DNA of 64,000 nucleotides, from contig CAVYXA010000001.1 in assembly GCA_963772365.1 (NCBI GenBank), positions 1,733,267 through 1,797,266 on the forward strand. Direction: 5' to 3'. Position numbers: made by a program. This stretch comes from an uncultured Verrucomicrobiae bacterium. Its GTDB lineage: Bacteria; Verrucomicrobiota; Verrucomicrobiia; Chthoniobacterales; UBA10450. How positions within the stretch are numbered: the stretch's first letter is position 1; each line of letters begins with the position of its first letter. This document shows positions 45,001-51,000 of the stretch, one piece after another.

Positions 45001-48000
45001 ATCAATGGCCCCATCACCGTTTTCCGATCTAGCGGATTACCGATCGGCAATGACTTGTAGGCGGCCAACAATTTGTCGCGCACTTTCGATGCGACAGATT
45101 CGTGCATAATCACGCGCCGCGTCGAAGTGCAACGTTGTCCGGATGTCCCCACCGCGCCGAAGAAGATCGATTGAACCGCCATGTCGAGGTCCGCGCTCGG
45201 CGCGACAATGAGCGCATTGTTACCGCCGAGTTCAAGGATAGTTCGTCCGAGGCGCCCGTTCACAGCTTTGGCCACGCTGAAGCCCATGTTTGTCGAGCCG
45301 GTCGCTGAAACCAATGGAATGCGCGGATCGTCTGCGAGCTTTTGGCCAACGGTTTTCCGGTCGCCCATCAGCAAGGTGAAAATCGCCGGATCAGCGCCCG
45401 TCTCCCGGCAAACCTGCTCGGCAATTTTCGTAACCGCAATTGCTGTGAGTGGAGTTTTTTCAGAAGCTTTCCAAACTGTCGCATCACCGCATACCGCCGC
45501 CAAAGCTGCGTTCCACGACCAAACTGCGACCGGAAAATTAAATGCGCTAATCACTGCAATCACCCCTAACGGGTGCCATTGCTCCATCAAACGATGATTC
45601 GGTCGCTCGGATTGAATTGTGAGACCGTAAAGCATCCGCGACTGACCGACGGCCAGATCGCAAATGTCGATCATCTCCTGCACTTCGCCTTCGCCTTCGG
45701 CAATGATCTTACCGGTCTCCATCGTCACAAGCTGGCCGAGCTCGTGTCTCAATTCGCGCAAACCATTGCCGAGCCGGCGAACAGTCTCGCCCCGCACCGG
45801 AGCCGGCGTAACACGCCATTTCAAGAACGCTTCTTGCGCCCGCGCGATCGCCTTATCGTAATCGTCATCCGATGCGGTGCGCACGGTGGCCAGCCGTTGG
45901 CCGTCAATCGGAGAAATCTTGTCGATCTTCGCGCCATCTCCACGCCATTCGCCATCGAAGACGCCGTCGTTTACATCGGACAGGCCGAGCTTTTCAAAGA
46001 GTTGCTTCATAGGTGGATCGGCTTCTCCGAAGACGATGTTAAACTAATCGCCAACGGCGCAAAATAACTGCGAACCTGCCCGTGCAAAAGTTTGGCGTCA
46101 CAGGCGCAGTTTGTTTGAGAACGCGTTAGGGATGATGCGCTCCATCCCGCGTGCACAGCCGAGATAAGGCACGTTCATTTGCGCTCGCGGCAATACTTGT
46201 GCATCAGCTTCATCGCCTCATCGACAACATCCGCGGTCATGTCGAGCGCTGGCCGGAACCGGATGGAGTTTTCTCCCGAGCGCAACGTCAGAATGCCAAG
46301 GTCGAACAAACCTTTCCACATCTCTTCGCGCGTTTTCGGATCCGGTAGATCAAAGGCCAGAAACAAGCCGCGTCCGCGGACCGCATTAATGAAATCGAAA
46401 GAACCTTGCAGTTCGCGTAGTTGATCCAGAAAATACGCGCCTACCTTTGCCGCGTTCTCGACCAGGTGTTCTTCTTCAATGATCTGGAGGTAATGCGTGG
46501 ATCGCACCATGTCGGTAAAATTGCCGCCCCAGGTTGAATTCAATCGGCTCGATAGGCGAAAAGCGTTGTCCTTCACTTCGTCGAGACGCGGCCCTGCCAT
46601 CACGCCGCACACCTGGGCCTTCTTTCCAAAAGCCATCAGATCAGGCAGAACGTCGAAATGCTCGCAACACCAGTTACGCCCCGTTGCGCCCATGCCGCAC
46701 TGAATCTCGTCGAAAATGAGGAGGATCTCATTTTCATCGCAAATTTGGCGTAACTTCCGCAGCCATTCGCCGCGAAAATGATTGTCGCCGCCTTCACCCT
46801 GGATGGGCTCGATAATGATCGCGCAGATGTCGATGTTGCGTCTGTCGATAAATTCGCGGATCTCGCGCTCGGCTGTCGCTTCGCGTGCCATTACATCAGC
46901 TTCGCGCTTCGATTCCGGCAATGAAAAATCGATGCAGGGACAGGAAACACGCGGCCAATCGAACTTGGCAAACAGATCGGTTTTGCGCGGATCCGTGTTC
47001 GTCAGGCTCATCGTGTATCCGGTTCGTCCATGAAAGGCGCGCCGGAAATGCAAAATCTCCGTGCCGCGTTCGCCATGACCTGCCGCCATGTTCTTACGCA
47101 CTTTCCAATCCATCGCCGCCTTCAGGCAATTCTCGACCGCCAGCGCACCGCCTTCGATGAAGAGATAACGCCCGAGAGGAGGCAGCCCAACCACGCGTTC
47201 GAATGTTTGCACAAACTCCGCGTAATCTTCCGAATAAACATCGGAGTTCGCGACCTTGACCTTGGCCGCGCGCACGAGATCACGCTGCACCTCCCGTTGA
47301 TCGAAATGCGGATGATTGAATCCAACAGTAAGTGATCCGAAGAATCCGTAGAGATCGATCAGTTTTCGGTCGCTGTGCGAGTCGTAAATATATGAGCCGC
47401 GACTCTTCTCAAGATCGACAACGATTTTGAATCCGTCGAGCAGAACGTGTTGCTCGATCGTTTCCAGGACGTTCTCGGGCGCGACTCGCTTTATTTTTTC
47501 GCTCTTTGCAGTCCGGCTTCGAAGTGAAGCTGACTCCGTGAGCACGGGCGGCATACTCATCCGTTGATCGTAGTCTGGGCGAGCAAACTGGTCAATGGCA
47601 GCCACGCATATGTCGGCAAACTCATTTTGGTCATCACGCCGGCCGCCAATTTTCCGCGTGAGGAACGGGAACTCTATCGCGACGTGCTGGCCCGCTGAGA
47701 AAACCGAAAGAGGTTTTTTCGTTATTGGAAGCTTCGGTTGTGAATCTGAGGCAATCCGCGGTTGCGAAGAAACTGAGAAGACGCTTGACAAAGAGAACGC
47801 AGTTCTTTCAAACTGCTGGTTTACCGAGGCAAAACGTAATTTTTCGTAATTTTTGAACCCATGAAAACAAAACTCTCTCCAGCGCCAACAATCTCCTCCG
47901 TTCAATCCCAGCTGGGCCTCTGCGCCGCCGCGCTTGCCGGGACAGCAGCTGCCATCCCCACCGCCCAAGCAGACATTATTACCTACGACACGCCAGTTTC

Positions 48001-51000
48001 TGTTCCGCAAACATTCCAAGGCGTTTATATTAATCTGGCTACTGGCGAGGTTTTTCCTTCGCCGGGCCCCGGCTGGGACTTCAATCCCTATTCTTCGGGA
48101 GGAACTTTTGCCATTTATTGGGCGCCTCCATCTGCCGCTGGTGTTGCCACCGATCCTGGTTCTTCCACCTACGCGGACCTTGGTATTGGCTCAGTTATAG
48201 GTCCGTCATCGCCGTTTACTACGGAAGCTCTAGGCACGGATCCCAATTTCCTTACTGCCGGCACTCATGTGCTCGGATTTCGTTTTCTCAACGAGGGGAC
48301 CGGTGTCGTGGACTATGGTTATGCCTTCGTTCAGACAGGTGCGGGCACCGGTTTTCCGTTAACCATCCAGAGCTGGAGCTTCGAGAATAATGGCGGCCCG
48401 ATCATGGTCGTGCCCGAACCTACCACCACCGCTCTGCTGAGCGCGGTGGCTCTGGCCTTGGGCGCGATTGGAGTGCGTCGGTGGCGCCGCGGCAAGGCCG
48501 CATGATACTCTGCCAAGATTTTTCGGCGCCTTGAGCCCTAAATCGTCGCTGAACTCGGCTCTCTCTTGTCAAGCTTTGTTAAGCTGCGAAATATGTCTCG
48601 GCGACTAACGAATTAGTGCAGGCCATCGCAAAAAAGCTTCTGCTCATCGGATGGGATGCAGCGGATTGGCAGATGATTCATCCGCTGCTGGACGCGGGCC
48701 GGATGCCCAATCTAAAACTCTTGGTTGAGCACGGCGTTATGGGCAACCTGCTCACGCTTCAGCCAATGCTCTCCCCGATTCTCTGGACTTCAATCGCAAC
48801 CGGCAAACGCGCCTACCTGCACGGTGTCCACGGTTTTGTCGAACCCACACCGGACGGCACAGCTCTGCGCCCAATCGCCAGCAGCACTCGCAAATGCAAA
48901 GCGCTTTGGAATATTCTCGCGGAGTCCGGCAAACGCTGTCACGCCCTGAGCTGGTATGCCAGCCACCCTGCGGAAAACACTAACGGCGTCTATGTTTCTC
49001 AACAGTTTCCAGTCGCCCCAGCTTCCGCCACTCCCTCATCCTGGCCGCCGCAGCCAAACAGCGTTTGTCCTTGGGAAATTGCCGACTCGTTAACCGAATT
49101 GCGCATTCATCCGCGCGAAATCAATGGAGCGACGCTCTCGCAGTTTATTCCCGCTGGAGCGCAGTTGGACCAGGGCAACCTCGAAGTGCGCCGTTTGCTT
49201 GCCGGCTTTGCCCGGCGGCTGGCCGAGTGCGCGTCTCTCCACGCGGTCACAACTGCTGTGATGGAGGAAGTGTCGTGGGATTTTTGTACGGTTTATTACG
49301 AAGCAATCGATCACATCGGCCACGATTTCATGCGGTTTCATCCCCCGCGGATGGAACAAGTGAATCCCGATCTCTTTGAAGCATTCAACGGGGTCATGAA
49401 TGCCACCTACGAGCTGCACGATCAAATGCTCGGCCGATTGATCAATCTCGCCGGACCCGAGGCGCACGTGATGATCGTGTCAGATCATGGTTTTCTTAAC
49501 GGCGAACGCCGGCCCAATGGGGATGTCGATCCAGCTCAATGGCATCGCAATTTCGGAATCTTTGTCTGTGCGGGTCCTGGCGTGCGAAAAGATGAGATTA
49601 TCCAAGGCGCAACGCTGCTGGACATCGCGCCGACGGTGCTTGCCATGTTCGGCCTGCCCGTCGGGCGCGACATGGAGGGCAAGGTGCTCGTCAACGCGTT
49701 CGAGCGAATGCCGGAAATCGAGCGTATTACATCGTGGGAAACTGCATCGGCTTCTGCTCCGGTAGGGAAAACGTCGGTCTCTGAAATCCAGGATGATCCT
49801 GAGGCAGCGGCCGCCGTGCTGCGGCAATTCGTTGAGCTCGGGTATCTCGACGCACCGGATGAAGACACGCAGCGCGATATCGCCCGAGCCCGAGCCGAGC
49901 AAAAGTTCAATCTCGCCTGTAGTTTCATTGAAGGAAAAAAACCGGTACGCGCGCTGGAATTGGCGGAACAGTTGGCGGCGGAGTTTCCGCAGGAAGCGCG
50001 CTACGCTATTCTTGTTGGCCAGGCAGCTGTTTCTGCAGGTTCGGCAGAATCGCTCCAGAAAGCGTTAACTACTTTGGAACGTCTTCAACCCGATCATAAG
50101 CACGTGCTCCTTTTTCGCGGATTCCATTCCTGGTGCACGGGCAATATTGCTGGCGCACTGGAACATTTCCAAACCGCGGCACAAAAAGGGCCGCGCGATC
50201 CGTGGCTGCTTTGCAGGATCGGCCGGGCCTTCTTGCGCCTGCGGCGTTGGCCCGAGGCAGAAAAGATCTTTCGTCAATCTCTCACCCTCGATGCCGACAA
50301 TGCCGAAACCTACTACGGCCTAAGCATTGCTCTTCCGCGACAAGGTCGGTTAGAAGAGGGGCTGGAATGCGGCTTGAAAGCGATTTCGCTTCTGCACGAT
50401 TTTCCGTTGGCTCATTTTCAACTCGGCGCGATTCTGTCGCGACTCGGCTGGTACGAACGCGCTCTCCAAGCTTTCGACATCTGTCTCGCCATGCGCCCGG
50501 ATTTCGCGCTGGCTCATCGGTATGTGTCACGCATTTCCCAACAATTGGGCCGGAGAGGAGCCGCGGAAAAACACCGGGAACGGGCCCAGTTAATCCTTGA
50601 ACAGGGCTTGCCTCAGCCTGCCGTCGATTAATCCAACTGGGCGCTCAGGGGATTCGTCCTTAGCGAACAGCTTCACTTATCGGCCGGCCTCGTTGAAGGA
50701 TGCGTTTTGATTCCTAGACAATGCCTTCGCGCAATGCGCTGTGCTTGCCAGCTAACAACTCCTGCACGAGATTATAACCCCGCTTGTCTGCGTTCTGTGA
50801 AACGCCGGCGAAATAATTGTCGATCCTGATTCGAGCGGATCGACAGAAATAATTCGCGAGCGAAAGAATCTCGTCGGCCGGTTCGCCGCTGTCGATCTTC
50901 GATTGCGCGAACGAACAGGTCGCGCTGATTGCAAACAGTTCGGTCGCGATTCCGACGAATCGCGAAAGCAGCAATTGCTCGCGCTCGAGTTTCGGCCCGA

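What a model noticed while it worked through the whole genome (the two positions that open the first line are those of the whole stretch)
47861..50631. Two-gene module: a YGW-type PEP-CTERM surface protein paired with a cytoplasmic phosphodiesterase-TPR(-sulfotransferase) [...]
All five alkaline-phosphatase-superfamily/TPR genes (C1:855793, C1:1781882, C4:170725, C5:294595, C6:72072) lie within two genes of one unnamed PEP-CTERM subtype marked by GF-x-F...YGW and a long Tyr-bearing signal. The enzymes have no signal peptide and some end in a sulfotransferase domain, suggesting a dedicated modifier of these surface proteins.
Evidence so far: 6 of 30 PEP-CTERM-like proteins carry the motif and all 6 flank an enzyme. 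In 6 other genomes of 4 families, 12 of 14 enzyme loci have such a PEP-CTERM gene directly upstream. No NCBIfam subfamily, no PDB relative, only unnamed Atlas clusters under 0.9; no relevant paper.
(Added by a program. Inside this text positions count along the whole contig: contig position 1,733,267 is position 1 of the stretch shown here. "Call 12" and the like, gene names such as g00115 and contig names such as C1 are that model's own, and its searches are not shown. The text may have been shortened before it was handed on; [...] marks where a part breaks off. The agent that wrote the report below was given it as the finding of a first reader that could run no searches.)

Follow-up and report, generated by a model that had tools for sequence, protein, structure and literature searches.

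The report
Surface-protein tailoring with detachable tail peptide
A cytoplasmic enzyme of unknown chemistry travels across many bacterial phyla with exported proteins that carry a special leader and tail, and some bacteria encode that tail as a separate tiny gene, which points to an undescribed way of chemically finishing surface proteins before export.

Summary
The pairing is real and wider than reported. The window encodes a 214-aa PEP-CTERM protein and a 671-aa signal-less NPP-like enzyme (Ser nucleophile, full two-metal set) fused to TPRs. Six of 7 subtype genes in this genome flank one of 5 enzymes. The 'YGW' and 'Tyr signal' labels fail for the window gene itself (YGY, Cys).

The enzyme does not follow PEP-CTERM sorting or the core domain (weakly HmuY-like). 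It follows two short elements: a weakly hydrophobic R/K-L-x-x-Y leader and a G-S-L-G-x-L-A-x-G..G...W tail helix. In Bacteroidia the partner ends in a T9SS domain instead, and the tail is a separate ~50-aa gene or an enzyme fusion: one copy in 18 of 18 enzyme-bearing genomes, none in 57 without. There, homologs in enzyme-less genomes have ordinary signals (13 of 13). A sulfotransferase is fused or adjacent in 48 of 80 loci.

Best reading (0.5): a FlmG-like cytoplasmic tailoring machine that adds an anionic group before export. Binding and chemistry are inferred, not shown. This scan noted the pairing on other genomes; no paper was found.

The parts
47861..48505 (+). Exported partner gene, 214 aa: atypical leader + beta-rich core + PEP-CTERM-like tail
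   Evidence: TIGR02595 24.1 bits, cut-off 16; model pLDDT 86
47861..47971 (+). Leader/signal peptide, residues 1-37, weakly hydrophobic, ending A-x-A; family motif R/K-L/W-x-x-Y-A at residues 17-22 (here Q-L-G-L-C-A)
   Evidence: A35 86%, A37 88%; 7 subtype signals KD11 1.12-2.04 versus 2.25-3.26 for 30 other PEP-CTERM proteins of the genome
47972..48409 (+). Mature all-beta domain, residues 38-183, unnamed family (3691 clusters at 50% identity), moderate fold match to HmuY family; G-F-x-F...Y-G-[WY] signature at residues 139-154
48410..48502 (+). PEP-CTERM tail, residues 184-214, whose L-G-A-x-G-x-x-x-W-R helix is homologous to the stand-alone Bacteroidota peptide
   Evidence: ranks 1-7 of 43; hhalign probability 97.4, E 1e-11
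48616..50631 (+). Cytoplasmic enzyme gene, 671 aa, alkaline-phosphatase-superfamily domain + TPR solenoid; no sulfotransferase domain in this copy
   Evidence: (pLDDT 93.7)
48616..49740 (+). NPP-like catalytic domain: D14, S53 (nucleophile position, codon 48772-48774), D232, H236, D290, H291, H310; conserved basic residues K64, R92, K95, R163, R299, R311
   Evidence: Ser in 82 of 82; 94-100% conserved in 76 rows; metal roles by analogy to Xanthomonas NPP, recalled
49867..50604 (+). TPR array, residues 418-663, with conserved E428, N432, D559, H600

Best explanation
A dedicated cytoplasmic tailoring system for exported proteins. SHOWN (comparative): enzyme, leader and tail helix are inherited together, while the core domain and the final sorting route (PEP-CTERM, PEP-less tail, T9SS) can be swapped. 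The leader is needed on each partner. The tail is needed once and can come in cis, as a separate ~50-aa gene, or fused to the enzyme or to the sulfotransferase. INFERRED (about 0.8): the AP-TPR protein binds the tail helix as an activating or tethering subunit and reads the leader as the substrate tag. The low hydrophobicity of the leader would route the precursor to post-translational Sec export and give it time in the cytoplasm (SRP preference recalled). INFERRED (about 0.5): the enzyme then modifies the precursor. GUESSED (about 0.3): the Ser nucleophile takes a phosphoryl-X or sulfuryl group from a nucleotide donor and passes it to side-chain hydroxyls, and the PAPS-type sulfotransferase, with optional GNAT, halogenase or glycosyltransferase, finishes the adduct. 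The protein is then exported, its leader cut at A-x-A, and it is displayed through exosortase or T9SS.
For: Order sample (61 genomes): 19 of 22 partner matches outside G000 lie within about 2 kb of an enzyme match. Bacteroidia sample (151 genomes): enzyme in 17, all 17 with a partner, 16 adjacent. Leader present in 17 of 17 enzyme-bearing and 0 of 13 enzyme-less best partners, with a profile trained outside Bacteroidota. Tail peptide in one copy in 18 of 18 enzyme-bearing and 0 of 57 enzyme-less Bacteroidia; 14 of the 18 were in the training set, 4 were not. A profile from 17 Bacteroidota peptides ranks the 7 subtype tails first among 43 PEP-CTERM-like tails of G000. Acidobacteriota class sample (71 genomes): partner in 6 of 8 enzyme genomes and 0 of 63 others; the other 2 have a leader-bearing neighbour with an unrelated core. 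One enzyme can co-occur with 21 or 29 partner matches. Sulfotransferase fused in 29 and adjacent in 19 of 80 loci; GNAT recurs in 6 loci; G000 has APS kinase and exosortases. Precedent: the TPR domain of FlmG binds flagellins for cytoplasmic glycosylation (PMC7591256, passages).
Against: No acceptor residue is conserved in the core, and Ser/Thr/Tyr content is no higher in enzyme-coupled partners. The leader Tyr is not invariant, and G235 has an enzyme with partners lacking the motif. The intact two-metal site fits a hydrolase at least as well as a transferase; the nearest folds are PafA, ENPPs and NPP. The window enzyme has no sulfotransferase beside it, and 18 of 80 loci with full flanks have none nearby. 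No partner or peptide was found in the partnerless small-genome Verrucomicrobiota searched, three of which keep an intact-looking enzyme. 16 of 80 loci with full flanks have no adjacent partner; I checked only three such genomes for partners elsewhere, and all three had them. Sampled genomes are related, so counts overstate independence.
Confidence: 0.5

Rival explanations
1. The enzyme makes a small sulfated or phosphorylated metabolite or lipid. The tail peptide only tethers it to the membrane or activates it, and the HmuY-like partner binds or displays the product outside.
For: HmuY-family fold match, a family of ligand binders. Small PAPS-type sulfotransferase, GNAT and halogenases are typical of small-molecule tailoring. 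No conserved acceptor residue in the partner.
Against: It does not explain why every partner carries its own special leader, why homologs in enzyme-less genomes have ordinary signals, or why unrelated cores with the same leader sit beside the enzyme.
Confidence: 0.2
2. Peptide-controlled phosphodiesterase: leader and tail, released by signal peptidase and exosortase, are ligands of the TPR domain and switch a hydrolase acting on a nucleotide (PAPS, PAP or a second messenger), as RRNPP-type TPR proteins read peptides (recalled).
For: Full hydrolase-type metal set and many conserved basic residues. The stand-alone peptide resembles a cleaved tail, including a P-x-E-G start.
Against: Permanent fusion of the peptide to the enzyme (L193, L203, L135) or to the sulfotransferase (L123) removes any switch. 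Co-occurring biosynthetic domains fit tailoring better than signalling.
Confidence: 0.13
3. The leader or the tail peptide is itself the modified product or a covalent carrier (RiPP-like), and the exported domain is a passenger.
For: The only enzyme-linked conservation lies in leader and tail. The motif Ser is invariant in 16 of 16 aligned peptides.
Against: Ser/Thr at that place is common in ordinary PEP-CTERM tails, and the leader Tyr varies. The core fold is kept under selection in all partners.
Confidence: 0.12
4. Mere linkage: a mobile cassette of functionally unrelated genes.
For: The cassette seems to move as a unit (window-like pair in Burkholderiales records L068 and L069).
Against: Co-occurrence persists when the genes are unlinked, and leader and tail change state with enzyme presence.
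Confidence: 0.03

Closest known systems
FlmG flagellin glycosyltransferase of Caulobacter (PMC7591256, passages read)
   Same: Cytoplasmic TPR-enzyme fusion serving several paralogous exported proteins; the TPR part binds the substrate.
   Different: Catalytic domain here is AP/NPP-type plus a sulfotransferase, not GT-B; partners carry Sec-type signals; a second, detachable tail peptide is linked to the enzyme.
HMW1C-like and BAHT (TibC/AAH) cytoplasmic glycosylation of type 5 secreted proteins; extended signal peptides (PMC8151025, passages read)
   Same: Enzyme acts in the cytoplasm on an exported surface protein; unusual signal peptides that can delay translocation occur in such substrates.
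   Different: Different enzyme fold; the partners are not autotransporters; the paper passages do not make the extended signal the enzyme's recognition tag.
PEP-CTERM/exosortase sorting (PMC1569441, passages read)
   Same: Window partner has signal, PEP, hydrophobic stretch and basic cluster; the genome has four exosortase matches.
   Different: The conserved element is the helix after PEP. PEP is often lost, and the helix exists as a separate gene in Bacteroidota. PrsT of that system is a lipoprotein TPR with no enzyme domain.
NPP / PafA branch of the alkaline phosphatase superfamily
   Same: Fold (Z 25-27) and metal-ligand set.
   Different: Ser instead of Thr nucleophile (Thr in NPP recalled), cytoplasmic, TPR-fused, 14-21% identity; no close solved relative.
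HmuY family (PMC12106395, passages read)
   Same: Moderate all-beta fold match, Z 6.8-8.8 over 115-127 residues for five labelled members.
   Different: About 11-14% identity, Foldseek not significant, no conserved His or Met; not lipoproteins.
Agl7 of Haloferax volcanii (PMC3892788, passages and Table S1 read)
   Same: A sulfatase-annotated protein that is needed for sulfation of a surface-protein glycan, so this superfamily can serve addition rather than removal.
   Different: Acts on a dolichol-linked sugar; I did not compare its sequence with this family.
RaxST-RaxX tyrosine sulfation (recalled; also named in earlier finding e1-6727006)
   Same: Cytoplasmic PAPS sulfotransferase beside a secreted substrate.
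   Different: No AP domain; here the Tyr lies in the cleavable leader and is not invariant.

Membership tests
PEP-CTERM protein | C-terminal PEP + hydrophobic helix + basic cluster | tested here: met
   TIGR02595 24.1 bits versus cut-off 16; Pfam PF07589 did not score the window protein
PEP-CTERM protein | N-terminal signal peptide and exosortase in the genome | tested here: met
   A-x-A at residues 35-37 conserved 86-88%, though weakly hydrophobic; 4 exosortase matches
PEP-CTERM protein | Cleavage by exosortase and surface display | not testable with these tools
   needs proteomics
Named NCBIfam PEP-CTERM subfamilies | Match of the core above the curated cut-off | tested here: not met
   window protein: only NF038125 at 13.4 bits versus 85, on the tail; best E-values among 136 members only 1e-5 to 8e-10
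NPP-like AP superfamily (PF01663) | Profile match, fold, nucleophile and two-metal ligands | tested here: met
   89 bits versus 23; Z 25-27; D14, S53, D232, H236, D290, H291, H310 conserved 98-100%
NPP-like AP superfamily (PF01663) | Phosphodiester hydrolysis | not testable with these tools
   needs assay
Formylglycine sulfatases | C/S-x-P-x-R modification motif (recalled) | tested here: not met
   the segment reads S-P-x-L-W in the alignments; PF00884 below cut-off
PAPS-dependent sulfotransferase (paralog domains, not in window) | P-loop motif and profile match | tested here: met
   G-L-P-R-S-G-T-S motif; PF13469 40-41 bits versus 27 for two G000 paralogs
HmuY family | HmuY fold | tested here: inconclusive
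   Z 6.8-8.8, next unrelated row 5.2; the tool warns that Z under 8 can be a common arrangement; Foldseek E above 0.1; no sequence match
HmuY family | His/Met pair for heme iron | tested here: not met
   no His or Met among columns conserved in at least half of 55 partners; some HmuY members also lack them
FlmG-type TPR-enzyme tailoring system | Cytoplasmic TPR-enzyme fusion linked to exported paralogs | tested here: met
FlmG-type TPR-enzyme tailoring system | Glycosyltransferase catalytic domain | tested here: not met
   AP fold instead; works like it, not a member
RiPP pathway | Leader recognised by enzyme and modified core released | not testable with these tools
   leader tracks enzyme presence; binding and modification need experiments

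The most novel reading that the evidence does not exclude
A cross-phylum protein-tailoring system with two-ended, RiPP-like recognition on folded surface proteins. The signal peptide doubles as substrate leader, and a PEP-CTERM-derived helix acts as an enzyme cofactor that can be encoded apart. A Ser-nucleophile AP-superfamily enzyme installs a new phospho- or sulfo-type modification on any cargo that carries the leader, whatever its secretion route.
Probability: 0.3. Interest if true: 0.9.

Novelty: new variant of a known kind. Interest (0 to 1): 0.74.

Why it matters
It would give a function to a widespread uncharacterised AP-TPR-sulfotransferase family and show that a sorting tail can have a second, cytoplasmic job and be split off as a micro-gene. 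A portable leader that directs a modification onto unrelated cargo, through either exosortase or T9SS export, would be a new route of bacterial surface-protein modification. It is testable in cultured organisms: a Halioglobus japonicus record holds the partner-enzyme pair, and Owenweeksia hongkongensis DSM 17368 has the small peptide gene Oweho_1879 (its enzyme was not checked).

Tried and rejected
Complex prediction of the window enzyme with partner residues 1-46 gave no answer; the tail peptide was not modelled with the enzyme. No RNA holder was listed for the region. Promoter and terminator scan at chance level. Atlas look-ups gave only unnamed clusters under 0.9 for core and peptide. PDB sequence searches gave only weak, distant AP hits for the enzyme and nothing for the core. 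Search for a conserved acceptor residue or Ser/Thr/Tyr enrichment: none. A lower Asp/Glu and higher Ala/Gly content in enzyme-coupled cores appeared (p 0.04 and 0.005 after dereplication), but it was picked after testing 20 residues and net charge did not differ in Bacteroidia, so I give it little weight. Enzyme-partner distance correlations (Mantel r 0.09-0.42, 47 loci) are what linkage alone would give. Leader Tyr as the sulfation site: rejected as a general rule (69% conserved). Stand-alone peptide as a transmembrane anchor: doubtful, as 13 of 16 carry a charge inside the motif. My prediction that leader-less homologs lack the enzyme held in 4 of 5 genomes and failed for G235. Rows dropped before counts: two weak, TPR-less AP matches in G088 and P0166, an unrelated cluster member. 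In one search the signal window was mis-picked for a few rows, so I rely on the motif score there, not the hydropathy. Paper searches: PEP-CTERM + sulfotransferase + alkaline phosphatase, 0 papers; T9SS + sulfotransferase + TPR + nucleotide pyrophosphatase, 0 with three terms; searches listed nothing on this system (listings only). Subscription papers are not covered, and six supplementary PDFs of PMC3892788 were unreadable.
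Full report
Observation. The window holds a 214-aa ORF at 47861-48505 and, 110 bases on, a 671-aa ORF at 48616-50631, both on the + strand. The first has a PEP-CTERM tail and no other family match. The second is PF01663 plus TPRs. Its first core motif starts at residue 12, an in-frame stop lies 12 codons upstream, and none of the five paralogs has room for a signal. The genome has five such enzymes and seven homologs of the small protein. Six of the seven lie within 2.3 kb of an enzyme, against 1 of 36 other PEP-CTERM-like ORFs. The nearest named enzyme relatives are Verrucomicrobiae records.

Enzyme. The model is confident (pLDDT 93.7). The N-terminal domain is closest to NPP, ENPP and PafA. 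D14, S53, D232, H236, D290, H291 and H310 are 98-100% conserved in 76 rows, and the nucleophile position is Ser in 82 of 82; metal roles are assigned from recalled NPP knowledge. Among the best 80 of 585 GTDB loci (a set biased to close relatives), a small PAPS-type sulfotransferase is fused in 29, adjacent in 19, absent in 18 with full flanks and undecidable in 14. A GNAT recurs in 6 loci. The window copy has no sulfotransferase; three paralogs do, and the genome has APS kinase.

Partner. The family has 3691 clusters at 50% identity and no Pfam or NCBIfam name for its core in 136 members scanned. The model matches five labelled HmuY-family structures among the top seven rows, Z 6.8-8.8, with the next unrelated row at 5.2. 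Foldseek is not significant and heme ligands are not conserved, so this is a lead only.

Linkage. In 61 genomes of the order, 19 of 22 partner matches outside G000 lie within about 2 kb of an enzyme match (counted from coordinates). Of the 80 GTDB loci, 53 hold a partner, 16 with full flanks do not, and 11 are truncated. Three Acidobacteriota genomes with a lone enzyme have 29, 8 and 3 partner matches elsewhere. In 151 Bacteroidia genomes the enzyme is in 17 (one is the seed genome, one is in pieces; two weak TPR-less hits in G088 dropped). All 17 have a partner and 16 are adjacent; 13 more genomes have a homolog without enzyme. In 71 genomes of an Acidobacteriota class the partner is in 6 of 8 enzyme genomes and 0 of 63 others.

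What the enzyme follows. It does not follow the sorting route: Bacteroidota partners end in a T9SS domain. It does not follow the core: the two remaining Acidobacteriota loci have a neighbour with the same leader on an unrelated PEP-CTERM core or on a Soli_cterm protein. It follows a leader and a tail. A leader profile trained without Bacteroidota separates the best partner of all 17 enzyme-bearing genomes (score 5.8 or more) from all 13 enzyme-less ones (3.6 or less), which have ordinary signals. In G000 all 7 subtype signals are less hydrophobic than all 30 other PEP-CTERM signals.

The detachable tail. All 17 Bacteroidia enzyme loci carry a 45-90 codon ORF just upstream, or in two cases an N-terminal fusion, with the motif P-x-E-G-S-L-G-L-L-A-L-G-x-x-G-x-x-A-W-R. 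It is also fused to a sulfotransferase in L123. It is homologous to the partner tail (probability 97.4). A profile of 17 such peptides ranks the seven G000 subtype tails 1-7 of 43. I searched 75 of the 152 Bacteroidia genomes held: one copy in each of 18 with the enzyme (14 were in the training alignment, 4 not) and none in 57 without. In G062 the peptide gene is on another contig than the enzyme. It was not found within L078 or L089. Public gene callers annotate it as hypothetical. Among 150 family representatives, 124 keep the tail helix but only 47 of these have PEP. In six enzyme-less Verrucomicrobiota genomes the homologs score 0-26 on the tail profile, against a median of 46 for 62 enzyme-adjacent partners, 9 of which score 31 or less. 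G235 has the enzyme and the tail but no clear leader motif, so the tail is the tighter link.

Exceptions. Small-genome Verrucomicrobiota keep an intact-looking enzyme with no partner or peptide found in the three searched; the two loci examined in full lie beside a GT9 glycosyltransferase and Ser/Thr-rich proteins of no family. Two other genomes have degenerate enzymes and no partner.

Mechanism. The pattern fits a machine in which the leader tags each substrate and the tail is a cofactor needed once per enzyme. The closest working analogue is FlmG, whose TPR domain binds flagellins for cytoplasmic glycosylation (PMC7591256, passages). Type 5 secreted proteins are likewise glycosylated in the cytoplasm, and some have extended signals that delay export (PMC8151025, passages). 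Agl7, annotated as a sulfatase, is needed for sulfation in Haloferax (PMC3892788, passages and Table S1). I put cytoplasmic tailoring of the partner at 0.5 and any specific chemistry at about 0.3. Against it: no acceptor residue is conserved, hydroxyl content is not raised, and the active site would suit a hydrolase. Rivals are small-molecule synthesis with a carrier partner (0.2), a peptide-gated phosphodiesterase (0.13), and leader or tail as product or carrier (0.12).

Novelty. Searches of the held library found no paper on this system (listings only). The PEP-CTERM paper describes tail and exosortase, and the words sulfotransferase and phosphatase do not occur in its main text (PMC1569441, passages). 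Two earlier notes of this scan describe the same pairing on other genomes, one proposing that the enzyme grips the tail. I saw them after my own tail results, and they are not independent support. The general kind, a dedicated cytoplasmic modifier of an exported protein, is known. The enzyme family, the two-ended recognition and the separately encoded tail are not described in what I could search.

Noticed in passing
L004:4389-12185 (G000:C6): Cassette extended by a membrane TPR protein (resembles TMTC-type glycosyltransferases, recalled; only TPR families among the rows shown) and two tandem flavin-dependent halogenase-like genes, the first frameshifted.
   Followed up: partly
L002:10307-13861 (G000:C4): GNAT gene between partner and enzyme; the fused sulfotransferase is split by a frameshift.
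   Followed up: partly
L207:349-10868 and L208:7327-18829: Partnerless enzyme in 1.7-1.9 Mb Verrucomicrobiota genomes beside a GT9 gene and several Ser/Thr-rich ORFs with no Pfam family that look like secreted translocator-type proteins by eye.
   Followed up: partly
window 49798-49845: The enzyme's own conserved linker helix (consensus Q-L-V-A-L-G-Y) resembles the L-A-L-G-Y stretch of the tail peptide; possible internal mimic, untested.
   Followed up: no
L068, L069: Burkholderiales records hold the window-type pair with the Cys leader (enzyme 66-67% identical), suggesting transfer of the cassette or mis-binning.
   Followed up: no
window 50714-52634: Acyl-CoA dehydrogenase-like gene downstream appears split by a frameshift (223-aa and 591-aa ORFs overlapping; name from sequence by eye).
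   Followed up: no
window 38482-42800: Two tandem paralogous membrane proteins with TolB-like and TPR parts (687 and 697 aa; labels recalled).
   Followed up: no
L256:4265-6759 and L104:4599-6978: Soli_cterm proteins with a doubled leader motif and a Gly-rich end, followed by a conserved signal-bearing ORF, upstream of the enzyme.
   Followed up: partly
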